From: Pseudomonadota bacterium
GTDB taxonomy: Bacteria; Desulfobacterota; Desulfobulbia; Desulfobulbales; SURF-16
Reading direction: 5' to 3'
Assembly: GCA_018897105.1 (NCBI GenBank)
Contig: JAHILF010000007.1
Span: 14,763-78,762 of the forward strand
DNA: 64,000 bases
Shown here: piece after piece, positions 10,862 to 64,000 of the stretch
Numbering within the stretch: the stretch's first letter is position 1
Layout of the letters: the number at the start of each line of letters is the position of its first letter
Program-made: the position numbers and the translations under genes
The notes under the pieces: generated by a model
What the model saw: only the letters and a program-made list of their open reading frames with translations
Told to the model about the DNA's origin: nothing
Databases searched by the model: none

Positions 10862-11302
10862 TATCCGTGTCCTTTTTGTGGCAATGAAGGTGGAGGTTAT
10901 TTGTTCATCTGATCATAGCAAAAAAACATACAAGAAGTGAAATGTTAAAGAGAGTGAGGGATTTTTGCGACTGAGATTTAAAACGATGAAGCTCCGGGCG
11001 GAGTTGTTTTCCTGGTGAAAGGATTGAGTATTGCTTTGACAGAAGTACCGTGGAAAAGTATAAGTTGAATAGGGCTTATGTATCGATCGCCTTGCATAGA
11101 TGCTGCGGCATAGAGAGTGCCTGTCCACGTCCCAGACCTGAGCCTTTTTTCTTTTGACCATGCCTTGGTAGATATCTCTTGTTTTTTTTGAGTGAGATGA
11201 GATTTTGCTGGTGGCTGACCGCCAAGATGATGCACAATGAATTATAACGATTATATCTGCAGTCAGACTAGTGGTCAAAGAGGCGTCGGCTGACGGGAAA
11301 TC

Positions 11303-50107: not shown

Positions 50108-50475
50108 GAGCACCTCAAGTCGGGGGTTAATAATGTATTGGCTGGGCTTTGTCTGGCAGTGCGACTTTGGTAGCGTTTTGTGAAGATGGTACAGCATAAC
50201 AAGAAATGATTTTTTTGCAAACCGCTGGCCGGATATGGAAATAACCTTGCAGATTAACCAAGTTTATTCAGCAAGCCATAACTTGCCGTTTCTGTTGAGA
50301 TAGTTGACATAGAGGTTGATGTCTATTTCCGTATGCGTCTTGATTTTATTTGTAGTTTTATATTATTCTCTCAAAGTCAGTCCAATACATATTTTATTAA
50401 AGTCAGCAGGGACTTCTGCTTGATAAATCATCATCACTTACCTGTAACTTCAATTTCTATTTGTTGGTTCACACA

Positions 50476-50628
50476 CAATGTCATTAACTTAAGAGTATTC
50501 GAAGTTTCCCGCCGTCACCCCGGCGAAGGCCGGGGTCCAGAACTCCTGCAAATCTCTGGATTCCGGCCTTCGCCGGAAAGACAACCCGAGGCTTCTGCCA
50601 TTAGAAAAAGCTAAAGTTAATGACATTG
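50476..50628. mobile_element. 153-bp MITE with perfect 10-bp target-site duplication
   Basis: TIRs CAATGTCATTAACTTAA (50476-92) and TAAAGTTAATGACATTG (50612-28). Direct repeat GGTTCACACA lies at 50466-75 and 50629-38. The interior is a long GC-rich hairpin (CCCCGGCGAAGGCCGGGGTCCAGAA / TCTGGATTCCGGCCTTCGCCGG). Confidence 0.7.
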
Positions 50629-50706: not shown

Positions 50707-50736
50707 TTGACAAAGTATTTGTTCGAACAATATAAT
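50707..50736 (+). promoter_or_regulatory. Near-consensus sigma-70 promoter with a palindromic operator in the spacer, upstream of the BREX operon
   Basis: TTGACA (50707-12), 18-nt spacer, TATAAT (50731-36). The spacer contains the perfect 12-bp palindrome TTGTTCGAACAA (50719-30). Confidence 0.6.
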
Positions 50737-50780: not shown

Positions 50781-50966
50781 ATGGAAGATCGCTGGTTATC
50801 CGTTGAGGAAATAGCCAAATACTTAGGTGTAAGCAAGGACACCATATACAACTGGATCAACGGGAAAAGTATGCCTGCCAATAAAATTGGACGATTTTGG
50901 AAGTTCAAGCGTGAAGAGGTTGATGAGTGGGTTAAATCCGGTGGAGCCGCGGAAAGTGACAGATAG
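50781..50966 (+). CDS. Excisionase/MerR-type helix-turn-helix DNA-binding protein (putative BREX regulator)
   Basis: WLSVEEIAKYLGVSKDTIYNWINGKSMPANKIGRFWKFKREEVDEWV matches the Xis-family HTH pattern. 61 aa, ending 10 nt before brxA. Confidence 0.8.
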   Translation: MEDRWLSVEEIAKYLGVSKDTIYNWINGKSMPANKIGRFWKFKREEVDEWVKSGGAAESDR

Positions 50967-50976
50967 TAAATACAAA

Positions 50977-51582
50977 ATGTCCTTCACTTCCGGAGGTCTG
51001 TTTTTCAATGAATCTCTTCAACTCGCTGAGTTGTTTCATGAAACTGGCGATTGGCAGAAAACCCGTGACCAAGCTTTGTCTGAGAACCTTCTGCAGGCTC
51101 GAACCGAGAGCAGTTCCAAGCGTAGAGTCTGGGAAATATGCTCTCGCTTGGGGTTGTTAACAGAAGATCAGCTCCAATTGCTTCTTTTCAGTTCGCGACA
51201 GGAACAGCAATATCTCCTCTGGGTAGCTGTCTGTAAGTGTTATCCCTTCATTCGAGATTTTATGGTCGAAATTGCACGGGAAAAATTTCTTCGTATGGAT
51301 CTGCATCTTCAACCTCAAGATTTCGAAATATTCTTTGAAGATAAAGCCGAATGGCATGAAGAGCTTGAACAACTCCGTGACTCGACGAGGAAAAGACTCA
51401 GGCAGGCCCTCTTTCAAATCATGCGGGAAGCAGAAATTATTTCACCCGGGAATATGATTATTCCCTCCCTGCTTACTAAACAATTAACCAAGGTGCTTGC
51501 AGCAGATAACCCCTCCTGGCTTGCGGTGCTCCCTATATCTGACGCGGATATCAACTCATGGTTAGCATTAACTACGACATAG
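50977..51582 (+). CDS. brxA: BREX protein BrxA (DUF1819)
   Basis: About 200 aa. ...SENLLQARTESSSKRRVWEICSRL..LTEDQLQLL...EQQYLLWVAVCKCYPFIRDFMVEIAREKF follows the DUF1819 pattern. It sits first in the canonical BREX-1 order. Confidence 0.8.
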   Translation: MSFTSGGLFFNESLQLAELFHETGDWQKTRDQALSENLLQARTESSSKRRVWEICSRLGLLTEDQLQLLLFSSRQEQQYLLWVAVCKCYPFIRDFMVEIAREKFLRMDLHLQPQDFEIFFEDKAEWHEELEQLRDSTRKRLRQALFQIMREAEIISPGNMIIPSLLTKQLTKVLAADNPSWLAVLPISDADINSWLALTTT

Positions 51583-52178
51583 GCTCATTTTCAATTCAAG
51601 ACAGCTTCGATCATCTGCTGAAACTCATCAGCAGTGAACGGTTTCTTAAGAAGCAGGGGCTTGGCAATGAAGTTCCCTTTTTCATATGTCCCTTCCCACC
51701 TCAGAAAGCCGCAGACATGGACAAGCTTCGTATTCAGTTGCGAAATAAACTCGAACAACAGGGCATTCGTATACTTGACATAAACCTCTATGATCTGGCG
51801 GTTGACCTCCTGAAAAAACGTAACATTTGGGATCGCATCCTTGAAACTGAGAAATCTGTAGATAAAGAGCAACTCAAAGAACTCCTGCAAGGAGTTCTTG
51901 ATTCACAATCACACTTAGTTCCTGCCATAGCAGAAGAAATGGCTAAGACTGATTTTGATGTGATGTTTATCTCAGGAGTTGGTGAAGTCTTTCCATACAT
52001 CCGCTCCCACAATGTCCTGAACAATCTGCAAAGTACTGCCAAAGACCAGCCAACCGTCATGTTTTTCCCAGGTGCTTACACCCATTCCTTAGAAACTGGA
52101 GCATCCCTGGATCTGTTTGGTCGCTTACATGATGATAAGTATTACAGAGCATTCAATATTTTCCACTGCGAGATTTAA
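51558..52178 (+). CDS. brxB: BREX protein BrxB (DUF1788)
   Basis: 206 aa. GLGNEVPFFICPFPP... and C-terminal PTVMFFPGAY...LDLFGRLHDDKYYRAFNIF match DUF1788. Confidence 0.8.
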   Translation: MVSINYDIGSFSIQDSFDHLLKLISSERFLKKQGLGNEVPFFICPFPPQKAADMDKLRIQLRNKLEQQGIRILDINLYDLAVDLLKKRNIWDRILETEKSVDKEQLKELLQGVLDSQSHLVPAIAEEMAKTDFDVMFISGVGEVFPYIRSHNVLNNLQSTAKDQPTVMFFPGAYTHSLETGASLDLFGRLHDDKYYRAFNIFHCEI

Positions 52179-52213: not shown

Positions 52214-55200
52214 ATGCTGTTAAATGAAATATTCGAGAAACCGGTAGGTCGATATATCGAAGGTGTTATCAAGGCTGATGACGAAGCCAGCCTGCGCTTG
52301 GAAGTAGAGGAATACGTTCTCACCAATGAGGTTGCCAAACGGCTGGAAAGCTTTCTTGATGCCTATAAAAACTATGACGGTGCAAACGGTGTCTGGGTGT
52401 CCGGATTCTTTGGTTCCGGCAAATCGCATCTCCTGAAGATTCTTGCTTTGCTCCTTGAGAACCGTTCCATTGACGGCACACCCGTACTCGACATGTTTCT
52501 TCCCAAATGTTCTGACAATGAAATCCTGCGCGGGGACCTTAAACGGGCAGTAGCAATTCCTTCAAAATCCATCCTCTTTAATATTGACCAGAAAGCTGAC
52601 GTTATCAGCAAAACCCAAATCGACGCCCTTCTCTCCGTCTTTGTAAAGGTGTTTGATGAGATGTGCGGTTACTACGGGAAACATGGACATATTGCCCAGT
52701 TTGAGCGTGATCTTGACAGCCGTGACCTGTATGGCAAATTCAAAGATGCCTATAAAAAAATTGCCACCCAAGAGTGGACTGTCGGCCGGGAACAGGCATT
52801 ATTCGAAGGTCATAATATTGCCAAAGCCTACTCGCAGATCACGGGTACTGACGAAGCGGCCGCAAATGGCATTCTGGACAAATACCGCAGTGATTACAAA
52901 CTCTCAATTGAAGATTTTGCCGAGCAGATTAATGCCTATATCGAAGGGCAGGAGGATAATTTTCGCTTAAACTTTTTTGTTGATGAGGTGGGGCAATACG
53001 TTGCTGACAACACAAAGCTCATGACCAACCTGCAGACTGTGGCGGAAAGTCTGGCCACCAAATGCAGAGGTCGGGCCTGGGTCATTGTTACTGCCCAGGA
53101 GGTTCTTGATGATGTTGTAGGTGAAATGCACAAAAAACAGGCCAATGATTTTTCCAAGATTCAAGCCCGTTTTGCCAACCGCATGAAGCTCACCGGTGCT
53201 AATGTTGACGAGGTTATCCAGAAAAGGCTTCTGCTCAAAAACGAAAGTGGCGTGTCGACACTGTCTGATGTCTATCACGAACAGGTAAACAACTTTAAGA
53301 CCCTGTTTGATTTTGGTGACGGCTCCCAGACCTACAAAAATTTTAGGGATCGGGATCACTTCATTCACTCCTATCCTTTCATCCCCTATCAGTTTACCCT
53401 GTTCCAGGCCGCTATCCAGAATCTGTCTCAGCACAACGCTTTCGAAGGCAAACATAGTTCCGTAGGCGAGCGATCAATGCTTGGCGTGTTTCAGCATGTG
53501 GCAAAGCATATCGCCAACCACACTATCAGAGAGCTGGCCACCTTTGATCTTATGTTTGAAGGAATTCGCACTGCTCTTAAATCACAGATACAGAAGGCTG
53601 TCCTGGTGGCGGAAAAGAACCTTGGTGATGAGTTTGCCGTCCGTGTGCTCAAGGCGCTGTTTCTGGTGAAGTATGTCAAGTCTTTCAAGGCCACTGTACG
53701 TAACATCAGCATCCTCATGCTGGATAACTTTGACCGCAATATCTCCGATCTGCAAAAACAAGTGGATGCAGCCTTGAACCTGCTTGAACAGCAAACCTAT
53801 ATCCAACGCAATGGTGAGCTGTACGAATTCCTCACCGATGAAGAAAAGGATGTGGAGCAGGAGATTAAAAATACGGATATTGAAAACTCGGACGTTTCAG
53901 ATGAGCTGGCTAAAATTGTCTTTGACCACACCTTGAAATCAAGAAAGATTCGTTACGATGACAATGGCCAAGATTATGCTTTTTCCCGCAAACTTGATGA
54001 CCGCCTGTGCGGAAAGGCGCAGGAGCTTACCATCCATATTATCAGCCCGTTTCATGAGCAGGTTGGCAACGAAACCACCCTTGCCATGCAGTCCATGGCA
54101 AAAGATGAACTGTTGGTTATCATGCCCGCAGATAACCGTTTTCTCCATGACCTGCTGCTCTACAAAAAAACAGACAAGTATGTCCGTCTGAACATGAATC
54201 AGACCCAGCAGGAGACCGTTAAACGAATTCTTACCGATAAGAGTTTCCAGAATATTGAGCGATACAAAGATCTGCAGGATAAGGCCAGGGATCTGCTCGG
54301 CAAGGCAAAACTCATTATCAACCTTAAACCCCTTGAGTTAAGCAGCACCGATCCCCAGACCAAAATCACCCAGGGCTTTTATGATCTTCTGCGGCGCACC
54401 TATCCAAACCTGAGTATGCTTCGCGGGATCAAATACAATGAGAATGACATAGCAAATTATCTCAGACCAACAGGCGCAACACTCTTTGGTGATGATGACA
54501 AAATGATGAGTGAGGCAGAGCAGGAGATGCTCTCCTTTATCCAAGGCAACAGCCGTAATGGGGTGCGAACAACTCTGAAAAATTTGGTGGAGCGCTTCGA
54601 GAAGAAACCATATGGCTGGTATTTTGCCTCTATCCTCTGTATCACGGCAAAACTCTGCGCCCGTGAAAAGATCGAGGTCAGATCCGATTCAAACATTCTG
54701 GAAGATGCGGTACTGGAAAAGGCCCTGCGCAACACCCAGGGGCATGGCAATGTCATCCTTGATCCCCAGCTTGATTTTACATCATCCCAGGTTCGGCAGT
54801 TAAAGGAGTTTTATGCTGACTTCTTTGATGCGCCGCCCAAAGCAAACGAGGCAAAGCCGCTGGCCAAGGAGACTGGAGCCGCTTTCCAGGATCTCTTGCA
54901 TGCTCTTGAGCCAATGGCAGTCATGGTGTCACATTATCCATTTCTGATAGTACTGAAAGAACCAATCAGTCAACTTCGGGAGCTTGTCGGCAAAGAGTAT
55001 AGCTTCTATCTGACTGCACTTGCCAAGCTTGAAGACAAGCTTCTCGACATGAAAGATGATGTGGTGGAACCGGTACGACGTTTCATGTCAGGTCACCCTA
55101 AAGATATATATGACGAGAGCAGGCGTTTCATTGAAGAGCAGCATGCCAATTTCTCAGACCTGAAAGGTGATGAAGGTCAACAAGCCCGTGACATCCTGGC

Positions 55201-55744
55201 AGACAGTCAATGTTTTAAGGGCAACAGGATGCAGCAGCTCAAGGGCCTGGTTGATAAGCTGAAAGAAGAAGTGGCCACCCTGCTTGATGAGACAAAAAAA
55301 CAGGCTCAAGAGACTGTTCAAGCACTCAAAGATGAACTCACTGGCATGGAAGATTATGAGCTGCTCGATACAAACCGGCAGGATGAGTTGTTGCAATCTT
55401 TCACCACATTTGAACAGAACCTACAACACCAGAAGATCATAGCCGTTATTCGTGAGAGTGTTCGCAAATTTAAGGAAAATGAATATCTGCAGCTGCTTTC
55501 CAGGAAAGACGGCTGGATACAGGAACAACAGAAAAAAGCCGAACCCGCCAATGACGAAAAGAAAGATTCCGGCAAGAAGGTTGAAACCCGGGAACGAAAA
55601 ATTGAATACATCAGCAGCAAAAAGATATCTGTTGCTTTCAGCAAAACGCTCCTTGTTAATGAACAGGATGTGGATAGTTATTTAAAGGCCTTACGTGAGG
55701 CCTATCTTTCAGAGATCAACAGTGGAAAGCGGGTTCAGGTTTAA
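52214..55744 (+). CDS. brxC: BREX ATPase BrxC/PglY
   Basis: 1176 aa. The Walker A GFFGSGKSHLLKIL lies near the N-terminus. Size and position match BrxC. Confidence 0.9.
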   Translation: MLLNEIFEKPVGRYIEGVIKADDEASLRLEVEEYVLTNEVAKRLESFLDAYKNYDGANGVWVSGFFGSGKSHLLKILALLLENRSIDGTPVLDMFLPKCSDNEILRGDLKRAVAIPSKSILFNIDQKADVISKTQIDALLSVFVKVFDEMCGYYGKHGHIAQFERDLDSRDLYGKFKDAYKKIATQEWTVGREQALFEGHNIAKAYSQITGTDEAAANGILDKYRSDYKLSIEDFAEQINAYIEGQEDNFRLNFFVDEVGQYVADNTKLMTNLQTVAESLATKCRGRAWVIVTAQEVLDDVVGEMHKKQANDFSKIQARFANRMKLTGANVDEVIQKRLLLKNESGVSTLSDVYHEQVNNFKTLFDFGDGSQTYKNFRDRDHFIHSYPFIPYQFTLFQAAIQNLSQHNAFEGKHSSVGERSMLGVFQHVAKHIANHTIRELATFDLMFEGIRTALKSQIQKAVLVAEKNLGDEFAVRVLKALFLVKYVKSFKATVRNISILMLDNFDRNISDLQKQVDAALNLLEQQTYIQRNGELYEFLTDEEKDVEQEIKNTDIENSDVSDELAKIVFDHTLKSRKIRYDDNGQDYAFSRKLDDRLCGKAQELTIHIISPFHEQVGNETTLAMQSMAKDELLVIMPADNRFLHDLLLYKKTDKYVRLNMNQTQQETVKRILTDKSFQNIERYKDLQDKARDLLGKAKLIINLKPLELSSTDPQTKITQGFYDLLRRTYPNLSMLRGIKYNENDIANYLRPTGATLFGDDDKMMSEAEQEMLSFIQGNSRNGVRTTLKNLVERFEKKPYGWYFASILCITAKLCAREKIEVRSDSNILEDAVLEKALRNTQGHGNVILDPQLDFTSSQVRQLKEFYADFFDAPPKANEAKPLAKETGAAFQDLLHALEPMAVMVSHYPFLIVLKEPISQLRELVGKEYSFYLTALAKLEDKLLDMKDDVVEPVRRFMSGHPKDIYDESRRFIEEQHANFSDLKGDEGQQARDILADSQCFKGNRMQQLKGLVDKLKEEVATLLDETKKQAQETVQALKDELTGMEDYELLDTNRQDELLQSFTTFEQNLQHQKIIAVIRESVRKFKENEYLQLLSRKDGWIQEQQKKAEPANDEKKDSGKKVETRERKIEYISSKKISVAFSKTLLVNEQDVDSYLKALREAYLSEINSGKRVQV

Positions 55745-55759
55745 AAAGGTTGAAAATTT

Positions 55760-58700
55760 ATGAACACCAATGAACTGAAAAAATTTGCCCAGGCTGCCCG
55801 CAGACAATTAATGGAACAGGTCGGAGCACGACTGAAGCTTGTTTTGTTAATGGATAGTGCCGAGATCCGTGAGAAGGAAAAGGTGGTCAAGGATCTGCAG
55901 GAGCAGATTGGCAAGACTTCTAAGGATGCGGTGATCGAACGGGTGGCCTATATCTGGTTCAACCGTTTCTGTGCGCTCCGGTTCATGGATGTCAATCGTT
56001 ATACCAAAATCGGAACGGTGAGCCCGGCTGAGGGCTTTTCCCAGCCCGAGATCCTCCAGGACGCCAAGCAGGGCCATATTGATGATGAGTTGCAGGTGGA
56101 CAGGGAAAAGGTCCTGCATCTCCTTGGCGGTCAGGCCAAGGCCACTGATCCCCAGCAGGAGGCCTACCGGCTGCTGCTGGTGGCGGTCTGCAACAGCTAT
56201 CATCAGTTGATGCCCTTCATGTTTGAGCGGATTGCCGATTATACCGAGCTGTTGATGCCGGATGACCTGCTTTCGGAGAATTCCATTCTCCAGGCCGTGC
56301 GCGGGGCCTTGACCGCAGTGAGCTGCCAGGATGTCGAGGTGATCGGCTGGCTTTACCAGTTCTATATCTCCGAGAAGAAGGATCAGGTCTTTGCAGGCCT
56401 GAAGAACAACAAGAAGATCACCCCGGAAAATATTCCGGCCGCTACCCAGCTCTTTACTCCGCACTGGATCGTCCGTTACCTGGTAGAAAACTCCCTGGGC
56501 AGGTTGTGGCTGCTCAACCGGCCTGATTCCCAGCTCGCCGGGCAGATGGATTATTACATCAGACCGGAGGAGCCGGAAACCGACTTCCTCAAGATCAACT
56601 CACCCGAAGAAATAAAAATCTGCGACCCGGCCTGCGGTAGCGGCCACATGCTCACCTATACCTTTGACCTGCTTTCTGCCATTTATGAGGAAGAGGGCTA
56701 TGACGCCAAGGATATTCCAAATCTGATTTTAACGAAGAACCTCTATGGCATCGAGATTGACGAACGGGCCGGTGAGTTGGCAGCCTTTGCCTTGACCATG
56801 AAGGCAAGGGCGAAGTACCGTCGTTTTTTCCGGAAATCTGTGCAGCCCAATATCTGTGTTCTGGAGAATATCGTTTTTTCAGAAGATGAGCTTAAGCCTT
56901 ATATAGACGCGGTTGGCCGGGATCTGTTCACCATGAATCTGCAGACCACGCTCCATCAGTTCCAGGAGGCGGATAATTTCGGTTCCTTGATTCGACCGGA
57001 GGTGACCGATGTGACTCATATCAGACGGATTATTGACGAGAAAAGACTTGGTTCAAAGCTCTTTTTGGCACAGACGCATCCCAAGGTTTTAAGGGCGTTG
57101 GAGCAGGCCGATTATCTCAGCCAGAAATACCATGTGGTGCTTGCCAATCCGCCGTATATGGGTGGCAAAGGTATGAATGGAAGGCTTGGGGCATGGGCAA
57201 AGGATAATTACCCGGCCAGCAAGTCTGATCTCTTTGCCATGTTTATTGAACGTAATCTTGATTTGGTTCAAAAGCGGGGCATGGTAGCCATGATCACCAT
57301 GCAGAGCTGGATGTTTCTATCGTCCTTTGAAAAACTACGGGCTCGGCTGCTCGGTGAGAATACCATCCTTTCTATGGCTCACCTTGGAGCCAGGGCATTT
57401 GATAGTATCGGTGGAGAGGTCGTTTCAACTACGGCTTTCGTTATAGAAAATGTAAATCGACCTGAATATAAAGGGGGCTATTTGCGGTTGGTTGATGGTA
57501 ATTCGGAAGCAGAAAAAGAAGCTGCCATCCATGAAAGCATTACAAATCTAAACTGCGGGTGGCTTTATCGTGCCTCTGCCGCAGAGTTCAAGAAAATCCC
57601 CGGTAGTCCCATCGCATATTGGGTGAGTGATAACTTGCTAAATTCGTTTTCATTTGATGCGAACGTCGGAGTCATAGCTAAACCAAGGCAAGGTATGGCC
57701 ACAACAAACAATAATCTTTTTCTGCGTTTTTGGAGTGAAGTTAATCTGAAGAAAATCGGCTTTGAATGTGAGTCAGAAGATGAGGCGCACGAGAGTGGAA
57801 AAAAATGGTTCCCATACAATAAAGGAGGACCTCTAAGAAAATGGTATGGCAATTATTTTCATGTAGTAAATTTCAAGAACAGAGGAGAGGTAATTTGCAA
57901 CTATATTGATAATACTCCGGGAGCTCGAGTAGGTTCCAATGGACGAGTAATTAACCGTGAGTTCTATTTCAAGCCTGGGATTACATGGTCTGATATCACT
58001 ACTGATAGTTTTGCTGCAAGGGTTAGTCCCCGTGGATTTATTTTTGATATTAAGGGGTCATCTGGATTTCCTAGTCTTGATAATCGGTATTCTGTTTTGG
58101 GTTTACTTTCAAGCAAACTCACACCAATTTACATGAAGGTTCTTAATCCAACATCAACTTTTCAAGTTGGTGATATTTCTAGAATTCCTTATCAGCACAC
58201 TAATGTTAATAATATTATTGACAGTCTTGTACAAACAAGCACGAAAGATTGGGACTCCTACGAAACCTCTTGGGACTTCACGAGGTTTCCGCTCTTACAT
58301 CCCGATACCCGCCAGCCAACCCTGAAGACTACCTACCAGAAACTTCGCGACCACTGGCAGGAGATGACGTTGGACATGCAGCGACTGGAGGAAGAGAACA
58401 ACCGTATCTTTATCGACGCCTACGGCCTGCAGGATGAGCTGACGCCAGAGGTGCCGCTCAGCGAAATCACCCTGACCTGCAACCCCCATTACCGCTACAG
58501 CGGCGACAAGAGCGACGAAGAGCTGGAGGCCTTGTTGCTGGACGACACCCTGAAGGAATTTCTCTCCTATGCGGTGGGCTGCATGTTTGGCCGCTATTCC
58601 CTGGACAAGCCGGGCCTGATTTTGGCCAACCAGGGGCAAACTATCGAGGATTATCTGCAGCAGATCCCGGAACCGAGCTTCCCACCCGACAAAGATAACG

Positions 58701-59266
58701 TCATCCCCATCCTCGACCAGGACTGGTTCATCGACGACATCACCTCCCGCTTCAACGAATTCCTCAAGGTCACCTTTGGTCAGGATCATTACGAGGAAAA
58801 TCTGAAATTCATTAAAGAGTCCATCGGCAAGGACATCCGCAAATATTTCCTCAATGATTTCTACAAAGACCACCTGAAAACATACAAAAAACGCCCCATC
58901 TACTGGCTCTTCTCAAGCCCCAAGGGCAGTTTCAACGCCCTCATCTACATGCACCGCTATCGCCCGGATACCGTTTCCATCGTGCTTAACGATTACCTGC
59001 GGGAGTTTCACACCAAACTCATCTCCCGTCGTGCACACCTTGAGGCCATCAGCATCAGTGCCTCCGCCTCCCAGACTGAAAAAACCAAGGCCCTCAAAGA
59101 AATAGAAAAACTCAAGAAAATCATCGCGGAACTGGATGATTACGAACGAGACATCCTCTATCCCCTTGCCACCCAGAAAATCGAAATCGACCTCGATGAC
59201 GGCGTAAAAGTGAATTACCCTAAATTTGGCAAGGCGTTAAAAGCATTGCCGGGGTTAAGCGAATGA
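55760..59266 (+). CDS. pglX: BREX N6-adenine DNA methyltransferase PglX
   Basis: 1168 aa. AdoMet motif ICDPACGSGHML and catalytic NPPYMGGKG (aa ~463). N-terminal ..AYIWFNRFCALRFMD.. is typical of PglX/type IIG-like enzymes. Confidence 0.9.
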   Translation: MNTNELKKFAQAARRQLMEQVGARLKLVLLMDSAEIREKEKVVKDLQEQIGKTSKDAVIERVAYIWFNRFCALRFMDVNRYTKIGTVSPAEGFSQPEILQDAKQGHIDDELQVDREKVLHLLGGQAKATDPQQEAYRLLLVAVCNSYHQLMPFMFERIADYTELLMPDDLLSENSILQAVRGALTAVSCQDVEVIGWLYQFYISEKKDQVFAGLKNNKKITPENIPAATQLFTPHWIVRYLVENSLGRLWLLNRPDSQLAGQMDYYIRPEEPETDFLKINSPEEIKICDPACGSGHMLTYTFDLLSAIYEEEGYDAKDIPNLILTKNLYGIEIDERAGELAAFALTMKARAKYRRFFRKSVQPNICVLENIVFSEDELKPYIDAVGRDLFTMNLQTTLHQFQEADNFGSLIRPEVTDVTHIRRIIDEKRLGSKLFLAQTHPKVLRALEQADYLSQKYHVVLANPPYMGGKGMNGRLGAWAKDNYPASKSDLFAMFIERNLDLVQKRGMVAMITMQSWMFLSSFEKLRARLLGENTILSMAHLGARAFDSIGGEVVSTTAFVIENVNRPEYKGGYLRLVDGNSEAEKEAAIHESITNLNCGWLYRASAAEFKKIPGSPIAYWVSDNLLNSFSFDANVGVIAKPRQGMATTNNNLFLRFWSEVNLKKIGFECESEDEAHESGKKWFPYNKGGPLRKWYGNYFHVVNFKNRGEVICNYIDNTPGARVGSNGRVINREFYFKPGITWSDITTDSFAARVSPRGFIFDIKGSSGFPSLDNRYSVLGLLSSKLTPIYMKVLNPTSTFQVGDISRIPYQHTNVNNIIDSLVQTSTKDWDSYETSWDFTRFPLLHPDTRQPTLKTTYQKLRDHWQEMTLDMQRLEEENNRIFIDAYGLQDELTPEVPLSEITLTCNPHYRYSGDKSDEELEALLLDDTLKEFLSYAVGCMFGRYSLDKPGLILANQGQTIEDYLQQIPEPSFPPDKDNVIPILDQDWFIDDITSRFNEFLKVTFGQDHYEENLKFIKESIGKDIRKYFLNDFYKDHLKTYKKRPIYWLFSSPKGSFNALIYMHRYRPDTVSIVLNDYLREFHTKLISRRAHLEAISISASASQTEKTKALKEIEKLKKIIAELDDYERDILYPLATQKIEIDLDDGVKVNYPKFGKALKALPGLSE

Positions 59267-60678
59267 ATATAAATGAGTTAAAAAAACAGGTCTCTCTTGG
59301 TGAAGACAGCCGCTGGCAATTCAAGGCGGATGTGCACAACGCTGATTCATTGGCTGCCGAGCTGGCTGCTTTTGCCAATAGTGAGGGCGGCGCCATTTTC
59401 ATTGGAGTGGCGGATGATGGCTCGTTGCCGGGATTATCAAGTAAAGATGTAAACCGCATTAATCAATTGATCAGCAATACAGCCAGCCAGCATGTGCGGA
59501 GCCCGCTGACCGTACAGACCGAGAATATCCCTGCCGGCAACGACAGAATTATTATTGTTCTGACAATACCCAAGGGAATCGACAAACCCTATTTTGATAA
59601 AAACGGGGTCATCTGGCTGAAAAGCGGATCGGATAAACGGCGGGTAAATTCCAAGGAAGAACTGCGCCGTCTCTTTCAAAGCGTGGATCAATTCCACGCT
59701 GATGAATTGCCCACCAAGGCTGGTATCGATAAGCTTGACAAACTCCGGTTCAGGGACTTCTTGCGAGACATCTACCACCAGGAGTTTCCCGAAGATCCCC
59801 AGAGCCTGACCCGGCTCCTGCAGAATATGAATCTAGCGGCAGATAACGGGATGTTGAACCTTGCCGGAGTCTTGCTGTTTGCGGAAAAGCCGGAGTGGAT
59901 TAAACCGCAATTCATAGTCAAAGCGATCCGTTATCCAGGCAATGATATTCATTCTACAACATATTTGGATACGGAAGATTTTTCCGGACCACTGGCAAAA
60001 GTATTCGATGATTCACTCGCCTTTGTCATGCGAAACCTTCACAAAATCCAAGCCGGGCGAGGGGTAAATGCACCAGGCATCCCTGAAATTCCGGAGTCGG
60101 TTTTTGAAGAACTTCTGGTTAACGCCCTGGTTCACCGTGATTACTTGATCAGCGCTCCGATCCGCTTGTTTATATTCGACAACCGCATTGAGATTACCAG
60201 CCCCGGCCACCTGCCAAACAATCTGACAGTGGAAAAAATTCTGGCAGGCAACTCCAATATCCGTAATCCAATACTGGTTTCATATATTGCGAAAGGACTG
60301 CTGCCCTATAAAGGCATCGGTTCAGGGATCAGAAGGGCATTAGACGATTGGCAGAAAATTGATTTTATGGATGATCGTGAAGGATGTCTTTTCACCGTAA
60401 CAGTTCACCGAACCGCGGAGAAAGGTTCGGGGAAAGCCGTTCTTTCCCATGAAAAAATAGCCTTACAGCTAGAAAGTTCGGGGAAAAGTTCGGGGAAAAG
60501 TTCGGGGAAAATATTGGAACTGCTTACCGATACCCCGGATATGACAATCCCGCAACTGGCACAGGAGCTCGGATTAAGCACCAGAGCCGTTGAAAAACAG
60601 ATTGCCAAGTTACAGAAAGACAACCAGCTAAAACGGATCGGACCGGCAAGAGGCGGCCATTGGCAAGTTAATAAATAA
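59263..60678 (+). CDS. COG2865-type protein: AlbA_2 (Schlafen-related) N-terminal domain + HATPase_c_4-like domain + C-terminal winged HTH
   Basis: EDSRWQFKADVHNADSLAAELAAFANSEGGAIFIGVADDGS (AlbA_2). ELLVNALVHRDYLISAPIRLFIFDNRIEITSPGHLP...NIRNPILVSYIAKGLLPYKGIGSGIRR (HATPase_c_4). C-terminal IPQLAQELGLSTRAVEKQIAKLQK (wHTH). ATGA overlap with the pglX stop. Confidence 0.75.
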   Translation: MNINELKKQVSLGEDSRWQFKADVHNADSLAAELAAFANSEGGAIFIGVADDGSLPGLSSKDVNRINQLISNTASQHVRSPLTVQTENIPAGNDRIIIVLTIPKGIDKPYFDKNGVIWLKSGSDKRRVNSKEELRRLFQSVDQFHADELPTKAGIDKLDKLRFRDFLRDIYHQEFPEDPQSLTRLLQNMNLAADNGMLNLAGVLLFAEKPEWIKPQFIVKAIRYPGNDIHSTTYLDTEDFSGPLAKVFDDSLAFVMRNLHKIQAGRGVNAPGIPEIPESVFEELLVNALVHRDYLISAPIRLFIFDNRIEITSPGHLPNNLTVEKILAGNSNIRNPILVSYIAKGLLPYKGIGSGIRRALDDWQKIDFMDDREGCLFTVTVHRTAEKGSGKAVLSHEKIALQLESSGKSSGKSSGKILELLTDTPDMTIPQLAQELGLSTRAVEKQIAKLQKDNQLKRIGPARGGHWQVNK

Positions 60679-60747
60679 AGTATTCAGTAAGCAGTTGTCA
60701 GTTTTCATCAACTGCACACTGAAGACTGACAACTGATAACTTTTTAT

Positions 60748-63243
60748 ATGAGCAATATACAAGACCCCCTTACACGACTCTTCAAGAAACACCGCATCGT
60801 CTTCTGGTATGATACAGATAAAGATCTGCGTGCCGATTATGAATCTCTTGATTTGCCCAGTATCGAAAAAATCGAACTGGACAATAACGAATTTAACGTC
60901 AAGCACCGAATTCTGCGGGATGAATCAAATACACAGTTTCTTCTTTACCATGAGGGGCCGCAACCTGCTGATCTGGAGAATTGGCTCCTCGATGTCCTGT
61001 TGTCCCAAGGTGAATTCCGTACCGATCAGGCATCCATATTTCTTGGTGAGCTTGGGCTTGGCCCCGAGTTCAGCGATCTGGTTCGTGGCCACCTGGAATT
61101 CTTTAATAATGCCAAGCGCAGGGAAAAGCTTAAAGAATTGTTGAGGCCTGACGACACTCCAGGGACAATCCGTACAAAAATGCTTGCTGTTTGCAGTTGT
61201 GCCGAACCTCGGGTTGATGTTATCTTGGAAAATTTCCTTGGTGAACTGGCGAGTAATCAAGACGAGAAGTTTAATCTCATCCAGCGATGCGGGCTTGATG
61301 GCTTTCTCTGGGAACAGTTGAACCGTTATTACGGCTATGAATCGACGACAAAATCCATCCGTGATTTTGTCATCGAGCTGTTTGAGTCATGCTACAGAAT
61401 GGAGCTTAACCAGCCCGCGGCCCTGAACAGTGAGGCCGTTATTTTCCTTAAGCGCTGGAAGGATTCCACCCGGCATCGTTCCTCCTTTGAGTCACTTTCC
61501 GAAGAGTGTGCTGATGCCCTCAGCATTGAGCATGATCTGCAGAATCGCGATTATAAATCATTGATAGATGTTGATTATTTCCGTCTGATTGATCTGAAAA
61601 TCATCAGAGAGCTGGTGCGCTCCATTGCTGACAGGACGCTGAGTACAGGCGAGTGTGCTGTTTTTATCAGAAACAGACGTCAGAGCCACTGGTATCAGGA
61701 ATATAGCCATCATTATGAGTCGGTTGAATATGCAGCCAGGTTTATCCAGGAACTAGAAACCGTGAATCTCCAGGCAAATACTTTGTCTACAGGAATAGAT
61801 CGTTACAGTAATGCCTGGTATCGTGTGGACCAGCTCTACAGAAAATTCATCTATCATTCCAGGAAATCCGGTCAGGCATCTTTACTGGAAAAGCTTTCCG
61901 GCCAGATAGAAGATCTTTACACCAACAGTTTTCTCCTACAGATGAATGATAACTGGCAGCAAGTGGTGGATGCCTGTCAAAGCTGGAAAAGTCCCCTTGT
62001 GCCCATGCAAAAAAGGTTTTACGAGAAATGGGTCAGCCCGTATCCAGCCAAAAACAAAAAGGTTTGCGTTATTATTTCAGACGCTCTGCGCTATGAGATT
62101 GGAGAAGAGCTCCTAAGGTTGATCCGCCGTGAAGATCGCTATGAAGCTCAGTTAGAACCAATGCTCGGTATGCTGCCGAGTTTTACCCAGCTCGGTATGG
62201 CTTCGCTTCTTCCCAATAAAGAGCTGCGTTTTGCAGATAAAGACTCTGCAACAATCCTTGTTGATGGTGTCAGTTCTCTGGGGACTGCAAATAGGTCAAG
62301 GATTCTTGGTAATTATGTTGTGGATGGCGCCACCGCCATTCGGGCTGATGATTTTCTTAATATGAACAAAGATGATTCCCGAGAGCTGTTTCGGGAGAAT
62401 AGTGTGGTTTATATCTATCATAACCGTATTGATGCCACCGGGGATAAGAAACAGACGGAAGAGCAGGTCTTTGAGGCAGTGGAGGAAACACTGCAGGAAC
62501 TGATTAAGGTGATAAAAAAACTCGCTACGGCTAATGCAACCAATATGCTTATCACCAGTGACCACGGCTTTATCTATCAGAACAAGCCGCTTGATGAGTC
62601 TGACTTTACTTCTGCAGAGCCTCAAGGTGAAATAATCTTACACCGGGATCGTCGTTTCATTGTGGGGAAAGGGTTACAGAAACATACGAGTCTGCGTTAT
62701 TTCACAGCAGAAGAACTTGGTCTTGCCGGCGATGTGGAGATCCAGATATCCAAATCCATTAATCGCATGAGGCTGAAAGGTTCCGGCAGCCGGTATGTTC
62801 ACGGCGGGGCATCCTTGCAGGAGGTTGTTTTACCTGTCCTTATGGTAAACAAGAAACGCCAAAGCGATGTGAGCAGTGTGGAAGTGGATATTTTACGCAG
62901 TGGCAGTACGGTTATCACCTCAAGCCAGCTGTCGGTTGCCTTCTATCAAATTGATCCTGTTACAGGGAAAAGACAGTCTCGAACATTACGTGCTGGAATA
63001 TATAATAAAGATGGTGAATTGATTTCAGACAGCCATGAGCTGATCTTTGATTTTACCTCGAATAAATCAAGGGAACGGGAGATACAGGTTCGTTTTCTTT
63101 TGACCAGAAACGCTGATGACGTAAACGGCCAGACTGTTACCTTGAAACTGGAAGAAAAACTGCCTGGAACTGCAAAATACAAGGGCTATAAGTCTGTCAG
63201 CTATACCATGCAGCGATCCTTCACCACAGATTTTGATTTTTAG
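60748..63243 (+). CDS. pglZ: BREX alkaline-phosphatase-like protein PglZ (type A)
   Basis: 831 aa. N-terminal ..KHRIVFWYDTDKDLRADYE.., central VCVIISDALRYEIGEEL and TSDHGF phosphatase-fold motifs. Confidence 0.9.
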   Translation: MSNIQDPLTRLFKKHRIVFWYDTDKDLRADYESLDLPSIEKIELDNNEFNVKHRILRDESNTQFLLYHEGPQPADLENWLLDVLLSQGEFRTDQASIFLGELGLGPEFSDLVRGHLEFFNNAKRREKLKELLRPDDTPGTIRTKMLAVCSCAEPRVDVILENFLGELASNQDEKFNLIQRCGLDGFLWEQLNRYYGYESTTKSIRDFVIELFESCYRMELNQPAALNSEAVIFLKRWKDSTRHRSSFESLSEECADALSIEHDLQNRDYKSLIDVDYFRLIDLKIIRELVRSIADRTLSTGECAVFIRNRRQSHWYQEYSHHYESVEYAARFIQELETVNLQANTLSTGIDRYSNAWYRVDQLYRKFIYHSRKSGQASLLEKLSGQIEDLYTNSFLLQMNDNWQQVVDACQSWKSPLVPMQKRFYEKWVSPYPAKNKKVCVIISDALRYEIGEELLRLIRREDRYEAQLEPMLGMLPSFTQLGMASLLPNKELRFADKDSATILVDGVSSLGTANRSRILGNYVVDGATAIRADDFLNMNKDDSRELFRENSVVYIYHNRIDATGDKKQTEEQVFEAVEETLQELIKVIKKLATANATNMLITSDHGFIYQNKPLDESDFTSAEPQGEIILHRDRRFIVGKGLQKHTSLRYFTAEELGLAGDVEIQISKSINRMRLKGSGSRYVHGGASLQEVVLPVLMVNKKRQSDVSSVEVDILRSGSTVITSSQLSVAFYQIDPVTGKRQSRTLRAGIYNKDGELISDSHELIFDFTSNKSREREIQVRFLLTRNADDVNGQTVTLKLEEKLPGTAKYKGYKSVSYTMQRSFTTDFDF

Positions 63244-63364
63244 ATCCTTTGAAAGGATAGCAAAAAAATGGAGACAACAAATATAAAGACTACAGCCCTG
63301 CCCGCCGCTGCTTTTCTGTGCTGTAAAGGGTCTTATCCTGTGTTTAGGGCTAAAGGAAATGTCC

Positions 63365-64000
63365 ATGAGTGAACTTGATAATAAAATTAACGAGCATTTC
63401 CCTGGGCTGGTTGTCCGCAAGGATCTGGTGAAAATCGTCAAAGGAAATGCCATTGTTCCCTCATACGTGCTTGAGTATCTGCTGGGCCAATACTGTGCCA
63501 CTGCTGATGAAGAGTCGATTAAAAGCGGTATTGACACGGTAAAGGAGATTCTACGTAAGCATTATGTTCATCGGAATGAAGCCGGGCTTGTTAAGTCTAT
63601 TATCAAGGAAAAGGGACGTCACAAGGTTATTGATAAGATCAGCGTTGCCTTGAATGATAAGGCAGGAGTCTATGAAGCAGCCTTTTCCAACCTGGGCGTG
63701 AAGAAAATTCTGGTGGACTCTAATACTATTAAAAAACATCCTAAACTGCTGGTAAGTGGCGTTTGGTGTATTGCTGATCTTGAGTATGAAGTTCTGGATG
63801 ATCCCAATGCCTCTCCCTGGGTGCTGAGCTCCATTAAACCAATCCAGTTATCCCATTTTGATTATGATGGCTACATTGAGGCCAGAAAGAAGTTTACAAC
63901 GGATGAGTGGATTGACCTGCTCATGCAGAGCATTGGCTTTAATCCTGAAATGTTTGGTAAACGTAGCAAATTATTACAGCTTGTCCGCCTGATCCCATAC
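63365..64000 (+). CDS. brxL: BREX Lon-like protease BrxL, N-terminal part (continues beyond the window)
   Basis: Absent from the ORF track because there is no stop. The ATG at 63365 opens MSELDNKINEHFPGLVVRKDLVKIVKGNAIVPSYVLEYLLGQYCATADEESIKSGIDTVKEILRKHYVHRNEAGLVKSIIKEKGRHKVIDKISV..., the conserved BrxL N-terminus. The frame is open for 212 codons to the window end. Confidence 0.85.
   Translation, partial: MSELDNKINEHFPGLVVRKDLVKIVKGNAIVPSYVLEYLLGQYCATADEESIKSGIDTVKEILRKHYVHRNEAGLVKSIIKEKGRHKVIDKISVALNDKAGVYEAAFSNLGVKKILVDSNTIKKHPKLLVSGVWCIADLEYEVLDDPNASPWVLSSIKPIQLSHFDYDGYIEARKKFTTDEWIDLLMQSIGFNPEMFGKRSKLLQLVRLIPY

What the first reader, a model, noticed from the sequence alone, without database searches (positions are those of the whole stretch)
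59263..60678. Schlafen-related AlbA_2/HATPase_c_4/wHTH gene wired into the BREX operon between pglX and pglZ
Canonical type 1 BREX is brxA-brxB-brxC-pglX-pglZ-brxL. Here a 471-aa ORF sits between pglX and pglZ. Its ATG (59263-65) overlaps the pglX TGA (59264-66), so it is translationally coupled to the methyltransferase rather than merely adjacent. The domains read directly from the translation are an AlbA_2 domain (COG2865 describes it as shared with mammalian Schlafen), a GHKL-like HATPase_c_4 module, and a C-terminal winged HTH. The pglX-pglZ junction is a known slot for accessory defence genes in some BREX loci, for example a GmrSD-type enzyme. I do not know of a characterised role for a COG2865-type protein there. 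It could be a second effector, a sensor, or a regulator of the BREX switch.
Basis: partly seen in the sequence, partly recalled or inferred. Interest (0 to 1): 0.7.

Follow-up and report, generated by a model that had tools for sequence, protein, structure and literature searches.

The report
Schlafen-ATPase cargo gene inside BREX
A real 471-residue Schlafen/GHKL-ATPase/winged-helix gene sits between pglX and pglZ of a type 1 BREX phage-defence locus. This arrangement was already catalogued in 2025-2026 papers, and the gene is a mobile "rider" that also sits inside type I and type III restriction operons, so the finding is correct but largely known.

Summary
ORF 59263-60678 (+) encodes 471 aa, and its ATG overlaps the pglX TGA (ATGA). 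Pfam finds SLFN_AlbA_2, HATPase_c_4 and a winged HTH. The gene lies in a complete BREX-1 locus (brxA-brxB-brxC-pglX-[gene]-pglZ-brxL) of a Desulfobulbaceae MAG.

The association is published. NAR 2026 (PMC12839542) reports Schlafen + minimal histidine kinase + wHTH genes linked to BREX and BREX-related core loci in at least 1017 taxa. Nat Commun 2026 (PMC13462974) reports a BREX-associated Schlafen cluster. A 2026 preprint names the SLFN+GHKL unit "Schlatpase".

My additions:
- The gene is not BREX-specific. Among 79 genome loci with 67-91% identical copies, type I RM (hsdS-X-hsdR) is the commonest host, and BREX hosts about 6.
- The pglX-pglZ junction is a cargo hotspot. Sister loci carry a DRT reverse transcriptase plus another Schlafen variant, or five unrelated genes.
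- The cassette has its own history. It is 90% identical where flanking PglX and PglZ are 70-73%.
- The catalytic motif E-x4-(E/D)-x-K reads E-x4-Q-x-K. The Gln is invariant in the clade, at the position where CbCash D22N abolishes tRNA cleavage.

The most likely function is an autonomous PrrC/PARIS-like backup module. RNase activity is uncertain. No experiment on a BREX-embedded copy was found.

The parts
50707..50736 (+). Promoter-like site with a perfect sigma-70 consensus (TTGACA-18-TATAAT), about 150 nt upstream of brxA
   Evidence: This is a consensus match only and has not been tested.
50887..51582 (+). brxA
   Evidence: Pfam BrxA E 2.9e-54. PADLOC BrxA E 3e-72.
51558..52178 (+). brxB
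   Evidence: Pfam BrxB E 4.8e-42. PADLOC BrxB E 1.4e-70.
52214..55744 (+). brxC
   Evidence: Pfam BrxC domains. PADLOC BrxC 1763 bits, full length.
55760..59266 (+). pglX (BREX-1 adenine methyltransferase). Its last ~430 nt (from about 58830) belong to the same high-identity block as the Schlafen gene when compared with L001.
   Evidence: NF033452 1507 bits. Eco57I / N6_Mtase domains. Sliding identity.
59263..60678 (+). Schlafen-GHKL ATPase-wHTH gene ("Schlatpase"-HTH, the pSlfn HisKinase-HTH class), 471 aa
   Evidence: AF2 model with mean pLDDT 70. Foldseek hits: 3lmm E 1e-19, human SLFN14/11/5, MarR/ArsR wHTH. dN/dS 0.07-0.08.
59302..59649 (+). SLFN_AlbA_2 domain (aa 14-129). The motif codons at 59302-59325 encode E14-D-S-R-W-Q19-F-K21.
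   Evidence: Pfam. A profile search against the PDB aligns E14/Q19/K21 with CbCash E17/D22/K24 and with the SLFN14 ExxxxEFK motif. Q19 is invariant in 118 homologues.
60154..60354 (+). HATPase_c_4 (GHKL/Bergerat ATP-binding module). The N-box E283-x3-N287 lies just upstream, at about 60109-60123.
   Evidence: Pfam. E283, N287, H291 and the S-P-G motif (313-315) are conserved in 95-98 of about 101 aligned 50%-cluster representatives.
60421..60495 (+). Low-complexity flexible linker (SGK repeats, aa 387-411)
   Evidence: pLDDT 23-24. Sequence.
60496..60669 (+). C-terminal winged helix-turn-helix (aa 412-469)
   Evidence: HTH_24 / HTH_11. Foldseek hits to MarR/ArsR/SmtB and Z-alpha wHTH domains.
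60692..60735 (+). 16-bp inverted repeat / RNA hairpin in the spacer before pglZ. It is built from CAGTTGTCAG / CTGACAACTG short repeats and coincides with recombination breakpoints.
   Evidence: Minimum free energy -24.6 kcal/mol, z-score -3.84. The repeat region varies in length between loci. The motif occurs only in this BREX lineage's spacers and in a few derived copies. Breakpoints.
60748..63243 (+). pglZ (type A)
   Evidence: TIGR02687 922 bits. The exact sequence is MBU4294444.1, from a Desulfobulbaceae MAG.
63359..64000 (+). brxL, 5' part (runs off the window)
   Evidence: BrxL_N E 8e-49 and BrxL_ATPase. The ATG is at 63359.

Best explanation
The gene is a stand-alone "Schlatpase"-wHTH protein: a Schlafen/AlbA_2 domain, a GHKL ATPase and a C-terminal winged helix. 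It is carried as a horizontally exchanged cargo cassette in the pglX-pglZ slot of a type 1 BREX locus. That slot is the boundary between the modification/specificity part and the pglZ-brxL part.

It is not a BREX subunit. It belongs to a promiscuous lineage that occupies the equivalent slot in type I RM (hsdS-X-hsdR), in type III-like RM, and in BREX-related operons.

The most likely mode of action is inferred, not shown. I propose a self-contained second-layer module that works like PrrC in EcoprrI or like PARIS in Salmonella BREX:
- ATP binding by the GHKL module drives oligomerisation, which brings the Schlafen domains together.
- A phage cue then licenses attack on RNA or tRNA (growth arrest), or another nucleic-acid-directed activity. 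The cue may be sensed through the wHTH, or may be loss of the host restriction complex to an anti-restriction protein.

Shown here: identity, architecture, conservation of the ATP-binding residues, strong purifying selection, slot specificity, and mobility.

Inferred: oligomerisation, the trigger, and the substrate.

The RNase step is uncertain because the second catalytic acid is a conserved glutamine.
For: Identity:
- Pfam domains.
- The PADLOC SLFN-pAgo model PDLC02394 matches aa 27-319.
- AF2 model and Foldseek hits to 3lmm, human SLFN14/11/5, wHTH regulators and a histidine-kinase core.
- A profile search against the PDB hits CbCash (9ylu) and SLFN14/12/11/5.

ATPase competence:
- The E283-x3-N287 motif, H291 and S-P-G are conserved. 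This matches RzAgo E314/N318, which coordinate ATP and Mg in the preprint.

Functional gene:
- dN/dS is 0.07-0.08.

Cargo rather than core:
- Canonical BREX-1 lacks the gene.
- L088 has five other genes in the slot and no Schlafen gene. L087, whose PglZ is 96% identical, has a DRT RT plus a Schlafen variant only 72% identical.
- Against L001 the cassette is 90% identical in protein with dS 0.80. The flanks are PglX 73% (dS 1.7) and PglZ 70% (dS saturated).
- Identity breakpoints fall at about 58830 and in the 60630-60745 spacer.

Promiscuity:
- 80 genome loci at 67-91% identity span many bacterial phyla and methanogenic archaea.
- Neighbours are HsdR in 17 loci, HsdS in 15, HsdM in 12, type III-like Res/Mod in 5-6, and BREX in about 6. 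Many junctions have 4-nt overlaps.
- An IncC plasmid carries a copy inside hsdR-...-hsdS-...-hsdM.

Repeated capture at the same slot:
- Three separate branches of the NJ tree (the window clade, L087 and L048) sit directly upstream of pglZ.

Mechanistic precedents from papers:
- ATP-driven tetramerisation and tRNA cleavage by the Schlatpase of RzAgo.
- CbCash and RorSlfn5 tRNases.
- PrrC is kept latent by its type I RM enzyme and activated by a phage anti-restriction factor (PMC1484252, PMC3458546).
- Transcript starts upstream of brxA and of pglZ in other BREX-1 systems (PMC12707154).
Against: The catalytic motif is E14-x4-Q19-x-K21, not E-x4-(E/D)-x-K. The register is fixed by the profile alignment to CbCash and SLFN14. 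The equivalent CbCash D22N and RzAgo D32A mutations abolish tRNA cleavage, so a canonical metal-dependent tRNase activity is doubtful.

No trigger, partner or substrate can be read from the sequence.

No experiment on a Schlatpase-HTH embedded in BREX or RM was found. In the 2025 preprint only 2 of 7 tested pSlfn genes protected, and neither protective gene had this architecture.

The AF2 model is only moderate (pLDDT 70; residues 106-149 are below 50).

The context counts rest on my own crude ORF calling and clustering of 79 loci. The tree is a simple NJ tree without support values.
Confidence: 0.5

Rival explanations
1. The protein is a nuclease-dead (or re-tooled) Schlafen-fold sensor or adaptor. 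In this reading the Q19 subfamily does not cut tRNA. It uses the Schlafen fold and the wHTH to bind nucleic acid and the GHKL ATPase as a switch. It then modulates or recruits the neighbouring restriction module (PglZ-BrxL, HsdR or Res) instead of killing the cell itself.
For: - Q19 is invariant in 118 close homologues.
- Q occurs in 75 of about 90 N-terminally aligned 50%-cluster representatives, against 9 with E.
- Q is present in all host contexts, including the IncC plasmid copy.
- The position equals CbCash D22, where D22N eliminates cleavage.
- The gene always lies immediately before the restriction/effector genes: HsdR is downstream in 15 of 17 loci, and pglZ is downstream in all BREX cases.
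- Several mammalian Schlafens lack catalytic residues and have non-nuclease roles (PMC13462974 introduction).
Against: - E14, K21 and D51 remain nearly invariant. This is not expected of a dead site.
- Gln can still ligate a metal ion. This point is my own knowledge and was not tested.
- A protein 70% identical would have to work with unrelated effectors (HsdR, PglZ, type III Res), which argues against specific protein contacts.
- No interaction data exist.
Confidence: 0.22
2. The protein is a transcriptional regulator of the downstream pglZ-brxL unit. In this reading it acts like a C-protein or BrxR: the wHTH binds the inverted repeat in the 69-nt spacer and times restriction relative to methylation.
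For: - It has a C-terminal wHTH of the MarR/ArsR type.
- A 16-bp inverted repeat lies right between its stop codon and the pglZ start.
- pglZ has its own transcription start in other BREX-1 systems.
- The family's historical annotation is "predicted transcriptional regulator" (COG2865).
Against: - The CAGTTGTCAG repeat occurs only in this BREX lineage's spacers and a few derived copies. It is absent from about 70 other loci that carry the gene.
- In many hosts the gene overlaps both neighbours by 4 nt, which leaves no operator.
- The wHTH is highly conserved across bacteria and archaea whose promoters are unrelated.
- Close relatives lack the wHTH altogether, for example the 388-aa IncC copy.
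- A 385-aa Schlafen+ATPase body under strong purifying selection is unnecessary for a simple repressor.
- The scan found no promoter-like site in the spacer.
Confidence: 0.12
3. The protein is an obligatory, integral BREX subunit in this lineage. In this reading it would be needed for methylation or exclusion, because it is translationally coupled to PglX.
For: - The ATGA overlap with pglX is conserved in L001 and L086.
- The high-identity block includes the 3' end of pglX.
Against: - Canonical BREX-1 works without it.
- L088 has a related BREX-1 backbone (BrxL 88% identical, PglZ 64%) and lacks it.
- The Salmonella genes in the same slot do not contribute to modification (PMC9009780).
- The same protein clade lives in type I and type III operons.
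- The 83%-identical copies in L003/L011 persist outside any BREX locus, with only a pglZ stub.
Confidence: 0.05

Closest known systems
Schlatpase-HTH / pSlfn "HisKinase-HTH" proteins embedded in BREX and RM loci (PMC12839542; PMC13462974 clusters 2 and 7; preprints 10.1101/2025.07.24.666596 and 10.64898/2026.05.29.728809)
   Same: It has the same three-domain architecture: SLFN_AlbA_2, PF13749 GHKL and a C-terminal HTH. It has the same kind of placement inside BREX and RM core loci, and the same wide, HGT-driven distribution.
   Different: None of these stand-alone proteins has been tested biochemically, as far as I could find. The papers describe the family as carrying E-x4-(E/D)-x-K, whereas this gene and its whole clade carry E-x4-Q-x-K.
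RzAgo (SLFN-pAgo) Schlatpase supradomain
   Same: The N-terminal SLFN + GHKL unit is homologous: the PADLOC pAgo model matches aa 27-319. The E-x3-N ATP/Mg motif is present. In RzAgo, ATP binding drives tetramerisation, which builds the active tRNase.
   Different: There is no Argonaute sensor here, only a small wHTH. RzAgo has Asp at the position that is Gln here, and RzAgo D32A is inactive.
PrrC anticodon nuclease in the EcoprrI type Ic RM locus
   Same: PrrC is an NTPase-plus-RNase-family protein encoded inside a restriction-modification operon. Relatives of this gene sit in type I RM operons between hsdS and hsdR. PrrC is the paradigm of a latent second-line tRNase released when phage inhibits the restriction enzyme.
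   Different: The two are not homologous. PrrC has an ABC-type NTPase and its own ACNase domain. No evidence here shows silencing by, or contact with, the host system.
PARIS-type ATPase+DUF4435 pair between pglX and pglZ of Salmonella LT2 BREX
   Same: It occupies the same slot in a type 1 BREX locus and is dispensable for BREX modification. PMC12839542 describes PARIS as sensing the anti-restriction protein Ocr and cleaving host tRNA.
   Different: The proteins are unrelated (OLD-ABC ATPase + TOPRIM), and PARIS has two genes rather than one.
PDB 3LMM (DIP2311, Corynebacterium diphtheriae; structural-genomics entry, function unknown)
   Same: It is the only full-length structural relative (Foldseek E 1e-19, profile E 2e-15).
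   Different: Identity is only 16-18%. It is uncharacterised, so it says nothing about function.

Membership tests
Schlatpase / pSlfn HisKinase-HTH | N-terminal Schlafen (SLFN_AlbA_2, PF04326) domain | tested here: met
   PF04326 E 5.6e-21, matching the full model 1-118. The profile hits CbCash and SLFN14/12/11/5. Foldseek hits human SLFN14/11/5.
Schlatpase / pSlfn HisKinase-HTH | GHKL ATPase module (PF13749) with the E-x3-N Mg/ATP motif | tested here: met
   PF13749 E 5.2e-13. E283, N287 and H291 are invariant or nearly invariant.
Schlatpase / pSlfn HisKinase-HTH | C-terminal HTH | tested here: met
   HTH_24 / HTH_11 at aa 416-454. Foldseek hits to wHTH domains.
Catalytically canonical Schlafen tRNase | Catalytic motif E-x4-(E/D)-x-K | tested here: not met
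   The motif reads E14-x4-Q19-x-K21. Q19 aligns to CbCash D22 and to the second Glu of SLFN14. Q is invariant in 118 homologues and present in 75 of 83 locus copies.
Catalytically canonical Schlafen tRNase | Metal-dependent cleavage of tRNA | not testable with these tools
   This needs biochemistry.
Schlatpase (as defined on RzAgo) | ATP-dependent dimer/tetramer assembly | not testable with these tools
   Only a monomer model could be predicted.
Type 1 BREX (host locus) | brxA, brxB, brxC, pglX, pglZ (type A) and brxL in one co-directional cluster | tested here: met
Type 1 BREX core component | Present in BREX-1 loci generally | tested here: not met
   It is absent from L088 and replaced by a 72% variant plus a DRT in L087. 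No BREX model in PADLOC or NCBIfam matches it.
PrrC / RloC anticodon nucleases | ABC-type NTPase N-domain plus PrrC ACNase C-domain | tested here: not met
   No such Pfam, NCBIfam or PADLOC hit was found. The resemblance is positional and functional only.
PARIS (AriA/AriB) | OLD-ABC ATPase plus TOPRIM/DUF4435 pair | tested here: not met
   The PADLOC and Pfam scans show no such domains.
BrxR / WYL regulators | wHTH-WYL-WCX architecture, encoded upstream of brxA | tested here: not met
   There is no WYL domain, and the gene lies between pglX and pglZ.

The most novel reading that the evidence does not exclude
The large E-x4-Q-x-K subfamily includes every BREX-, type I- and type III-embedded copy examined here. 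In this reading it is not the "backup suicidal RNase" assumed in the literature. It would instead be a Schlafen-fold ATP switch with altered or no nuclease chemistry. It would ride at the modification/restriction boundary of methylation-based immune systems, and it would sense or control them, for example by guarding the methyltransferase/specificity complex against DNA-mimic anti-restriction proteins.
Probability: 0.25. Interest if true: 0.6.

Novelty: new member of a known kind. Interest (0 to 1): 0.33.

Why it matters
BREX still has no agreed mechanism, and genes embedded in its operon are candidate second layers or anti-anti-restriction guards. This locus is a clean, compact example of the Schlafen-ATPase rider, with a single cargo gene and intact BREX-1 genes as far as the window extends (brxL is cut off at its end).

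Two points from this work are directly testable:
- The rider is a self-contained cassette that hops between type I RM, type III RM and BREX at the same functional boundary.
- Its "catalytic" motif naturally carries the amide that experimenters use to kill related enzymes.

If the Q-type proteins turn out to be active, the Schlafen catalytic model needs widening. If they are inactive, the published label "backup RNase effector" for about a thousand BREX-linked genes is wrong.

Tried and rejected
1. Near-identical DNA in E. coli genomes: no match. The source is a Desulfobulbaceae MAG.
2. NCBIfam: no model matches the protein.
3. BREX-side survey with PglZ in metagenome contigs: only 3 loci were returned. 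They were useful qualitatively but give no frequency estimate.
4. Operator hypothesis for the spacer inverted repeat: the motif is lineage-restricted and absent from about 70 other loci, so I rejected it as a general feature.
5. Intrinsic terminator or sigma-70 promoter between the gene and pglZ: none by the consensus scans. The hairpin has a 12-nt loop, and the U-run starts about 6 nt after the stem, so it fails the terminator definition.
6. Foreign-composition signal: GC of the gene (0.47-0.49) is not distinguishable from the flanks. Mobility had to be shown by identity and dS contrasts instead.
7. D15 as a universal compensating acid for Q19: D15 is invariant in the close clade but is T or S in many Q-type representatives, so this is not supported.
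8. Supplementary files of PMC12839542 held as text contain no "Schlafen" entries. The 1017-taxa figure therefore could not be checked against its raw list.
9. The exact protein sequence is not in the 15-billion-protein collection.
Full report
OBSERVATION.
- The junction reads cgaATGAata, so the start codon (59263-65) overlaps the pglX stop (59264-66) by the classic ATGA.
- The gene ends with TAA at 60676-78. pglZ starts 69 nt later, at 60748.
- Pfam confirms all three domains above their gathering scores: SLFN_AlbA_2 (aa 14-129, E 5.6e-21, full model length), HATPase_c_4 (aa 298-364, E 5.2e-13) and HTH_24/HTH_11 (aa 416-454).
- The surrounding genes are a textbook type 1 BREX set:
  - brxA 50887-51582, brxB 51558-52178, brxC 52214-55744.
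  - pglX 55760-59266 (NF033452, 1507 bits).
  - pglZ 60748-63243 (type A, TIGR02687, 922 bits).
  - The 5' part of brxL from 63359.
- The rest of the window is ordinary chromosome: M1 peptidase, pyruvate kinase, a Cus-like RND pump, an MCP and CheA.
- The exact PglZ sequence is deposited from a Desulfobulbaceae MAG.

WHAT THE PROTEIN IS.
- An AlphaFold2 model built on 118 homologues is of moderate quality (mean pLDDT 70). The aa 387-411 SGK-repeat linker is disordered.
- Foldseek against the PDB returns four kinds of hit:
  - the uncharacterised full-length relative 3LMM (E 1e-19);
  - human SLFN14, SLFN11 and SLFN5 for the N-terminal domain (E about 1e-3);
  - a histidine-kinase catalytic core;
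  - many MarR/ArsR/Z-alpha winged helices for the C-terminus.
- A profile of 64 diverse relatives hits 3LMM, SLFN14, the bacterial CRISPR-associated Schlafen CbCash (9ylu, E 3e-9), and SLFN12, SLFN8, SLFN11 and SLFN5.
- PADLOC's best hit is the SLFN-pAgo model over aa 27-319.
- The GHKL N-box (E283-x3-N287, H291) and the S-P-G element are essentially invariant. They correspond to the E314/N318 pair that binds ATP and Mg in RzAgo according to the 2026 preprint.
- The protein is therefore a stand-alone member of what that preprint calls the "Schlatpase" supradomain plus a C-terminal HTH. This is the class the 2025 pSlfn preprint calls HisKinase-HTH, which makes up 19.2% of prokaryotic Schlafens.

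THE ACTIVE SITE IS NOT CANONICAL.
- All experimentally studied Schlafen nucleases use E-x4-(E/D)-x-K.
- Here the motif reads G-E14-D-S-R-W-Q19-F-K21.
- The profile-to-PDB alignment fixes the register. E14 aligns with CbCash E17, Q19 with CbCash D22 and the second Glu of SLFN14, and K21 with CbCash K24.
- Q19 is invariant in 118 homologues of 70-92% identity.
- Q occurs in 75 of about 90 N-terminally aligned 50%-cluster representatives down to about 35% identity, against 9 with Glu.
- Q occurs in 75 of 83 locus copies whatever the host operon, including an IncC plasmid copy.
- In the papers, CbCash D22N, RzAgo D32A and the RorSlfn5 E15A/D20A double mutant are all inactive.
- E14, K21 and the third acid D51 stay conserved. 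The site therefore looks re-tooled rather than decayed, but a canonical tRNase cannot be assumed.
- I found no mention of this Gln variant in the four papers I read.

WHERE ITS RELATIVES LIVE.
- The family is very large: 17,075 50%-cluster representatives at E <= 1e-3.
- A scan of one genome per species returned 80 loci encoding copies 67-91% identical. They include Desulfobacterota, Nitrospirota, Planctomycetota, Chloroflexota, Latescibacterota, Legionellaceae, Bacteroidetes, and the archaea Methanothrix and Methanoculleus. This is a clear HGT signature.
- tblastn with the window's BREX proteins finds BREX flanks in only a handful of loci:
  - L006-L009;
  - the distant BREX locus L048;
  - pglZ 5' stubs after the gene in L003-L005 and L011.
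- Pfam on the immediate neighbours, and clustering of all neighbours within 7 kb, show the hosts:
  - Type I RM is the commonest host: HsdR in 17 of 79 loci (15 of them directly downstream on the same strand), HsdS in 15 (13 upstream), HsdM in 12.
  - Type III-like Res/Mod pairs follow (5-6 loci).
  - Then SNF2+NOV_C helicases, small HNH proteins, DUF4143 ATPases and YhcG nucleases.
- L016 is a BREX-related system: an Eco57I/DUF7008 methyltransferase upstream and a DUF6079-like ATPase downstream.
- An IncC resistance plasmid carries a 388-aa copy without the wHTH, inside hsdR-TrlF-X-hsdS-AAA-hsdM.
- Four-nucleotide overlaps with one or both neighbours are common in all these hosts. The ATGA overlap with pglX is therefore the family's usual way of sitting in an operon, not a BREX peculiarity.
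- The recurring position is after the methyltransferase/specificity genes and before the restriction/effector genes.

THE pglX-pglZ SLOT IS A HOTSPOT AND THE CASSETTE MOVES.
- Three metagenome relatives of this PglZ show three states of the slot:
  - L086 has the same arrangement (Schlafen gene 92%, PglZ 87%).
  - L087 has a nearly identical backbone (PglZ 96%, BrxC 91%) but a 74% PglX. In the slot it carries a DRT UG5-nitrilase reverse transcriptase followed by a Schlafen-ATPase-wHTH gene only 72% identical to ours.
  - L088 (BrxL 88%, PglZ 64%) holds five other genes (UvrD-like, unknown, two BrxD-like, a BrxHI-like helicase) and no Schlafen gene.
- Against L001 the cassette is 90% identical (dS 0.80, dN/dS 0.07). 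The flanks are much more diverged: PglX 73% (dS 1.7) and PglZ 70% (dS saturated).
- Sliding nucleotide identity places the conserved block at about 58830-60630, which is the last ~430 nt of pglX plus the gene.
- Against L087, identity jumps from about 0.35 to above 0.96 within 60672-60745.
- Both right-hand breakpoints fall in the 69-nt spacer. That spacer is built of CAGTTGTCAG/CTGACAACTG short repeats, varies in length between loci, and here forms a 16-bp hairpin (-24.6 kcal/mol, z -3.8).
- A rough NJ tree puts the window, L086, L001 and L006-L008 in one tight BREX clade. L087 and L048 lie on separate branches among type I- and type III-embedded copies. BREX therefore acquired such genes at least three times, each time directly upstream of pglZ.
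- Copies 81-83% identical persist outside BREX with only a pglZ stub. In L003 the copy lies next to an IS200/IS605-type transposase.

WHAT IS ALREADY KNOWN.
[quoted passage not shown] It interprets them as backup suicidal effectors.
- PMC13462974 (Nat Commun, July 2026) describes a Schlafen cluster with ATPase and DNA-binding domains "tightly associated" with BREX, and others associated with RM.
- The pSlfn preprint finds 69.6% of pSlfn genes within 10 kb of at least one known defence gene, and its table lists BREX neighbours.
- The RzAgo preprint shows Schlatpase modules exchanged between pAgo and type I RM.
- Other BREX-1 systems have transcript starts upstream of brxA and of pglZ. Salmonella LT2 carries an ATPase+DUF4435 pair in the same slot, and that pair is dispensable for modification.
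- I found no experiment on a BREX- or RM-embedded Schlatpase-HTH.

HOW IT MOST LIKELY WORKS.
- Shown here: architecture, an intact ATP-binding motif, strong purifying selection, cassette mobility, and slot preference.
- Inferred from RzAgo: ATP-driven oligomerisation that juxtaposes the Schlafen domains.
- Inferred from position and from the PrrC/EcoprrI and PARIS precedents: a self-contained second layer released by a phage cue. The cue is possibly an anti-restriction protein that disables the methyltransferase/specificity complex. The outcome would be RNA damage and growth arrest.
- I give this explanation about 0.5.
- The rivals, in order of weight:
  - A nuclease-dead or re-tooled sensor/adaptor, about 0.22. 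It is supported by Q19 and weakened by the conserved E14/K21/D51 and by the diversity of partner systems.
  - A regulator of pglZ-brxL, about 0.12. It is weakened by the lineage-restricted operator candidate, the overlapping junctions elsewhere, the wHTH-less relatives and the cross-domain conservation of the wHTH.
  - An obligatory BREX subunit, about 0.05.

VERDICT.
However, the thing itself is a new member of a kind already catalogued in 2025-2026.
- The remaining interest lies in two points: the untested function of these riders, and the family-wide Gln at a catalytic position.
- Interest score: 0.33.

Noticed in passing
window 50707-50736: A perfect 12/12 sigma-70 consensus (TTGACA-18-TATAAT) lies about 150 nt upstream of brxA. 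A 93-aa ORF (50333-50614) with no Pfam or NCBIfam match lies just before it.
   Followed up: partly
window 60679-60747; L001 4982-5092; L087 about 9960-10000 and 12541: The spacer before pglZ is made of short CAGTTGTCAG/CTGACAACTG repeats, and L001 has CTGCCTA x5. It forms a 16-bp hairpin here and coincides with recombination breakpoints. One copy also lies between pglZ and brxL in L087. Its role (recombination site, RNA processing site or attenuator) is unknown.
   Followed up: partly
L087 5577-8411 and 8408-9865: A BREX-1 locus with 96% identical PglZ carries two genes in the same slot. One is a DRT UG5-nitrilase reverse transcriptase (PADLOC E 1e-231). The other is a second Schlafen-ATPase-wHTH variant (72% identical), and the two are joined by a 4-nt overlap.
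   Followed up: partly
L088 1195-9275: Another related BREX-1 locus has five co-directional genes between pglX and pglZ: a UvrD-like helicase, an unknown 285-aa protein, two BrxD/SngB-like ATPases and a BrxHI/SngC-like helicase. It has no Schlafen gene.
   Followed up: partly
L003 8968-11765; L011 about 10001-11603: Schlafen copies 81-83% identical lie outside any BREX locus but are still followed by a short ORF that is a 5' stub of pglZ (66-69% identical). In L003 the copy is next to an IS200/IS605-type Y1 transposase and Wadjet/RM remnants. These look like decayed or mobilised pieces of a BREX locus.
   Followed up: partly
L089 (E. coli IncC plasmid pNDM102337, NC_019045.2 134572-145342): A type I RM operon on a carbapenemase plasmid has the order hsdR - TrlF-family AAA-like ATPase - 388-aa Schlafen-ATPase without wHTH (annotated "RNA-binding domain-containing protein") - hsdS - AAA ATPase - hsdM. 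The same TrlF pairing recurs on Pseudomonas and Klebsiella plasmids.
   Followed up: partly
window 57600-58200 (inside pglX): There is a low-GC dip (0.39, against 0.45-0.56 around it). This segment also has the lowest identity to L001 (0.45). It is probably the swapped target-recognition part of PglX.
   Followed up: no
window 9071-10861 (- strand): This gene encodes a pyruvate kinase with an N-terminal response-regulator receiver domain fused to it.
   Followed up: no
L037 8168-9775: Directly upstream of a Schlafen-ATPase-wHTH gene lies a second HATPase_c_4 protein that carries a DUF4062 domain instead of the Schlafen domain.
   Followed up: no
window 60475-60510 (aa 405-416): The linker contains an SSGKSSGKSSGK repeat. 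Its length varies among homologues (proteins range from 448 to 499 aa), which suggests slippage-prone low-complexity sequence.
   Followed up: no
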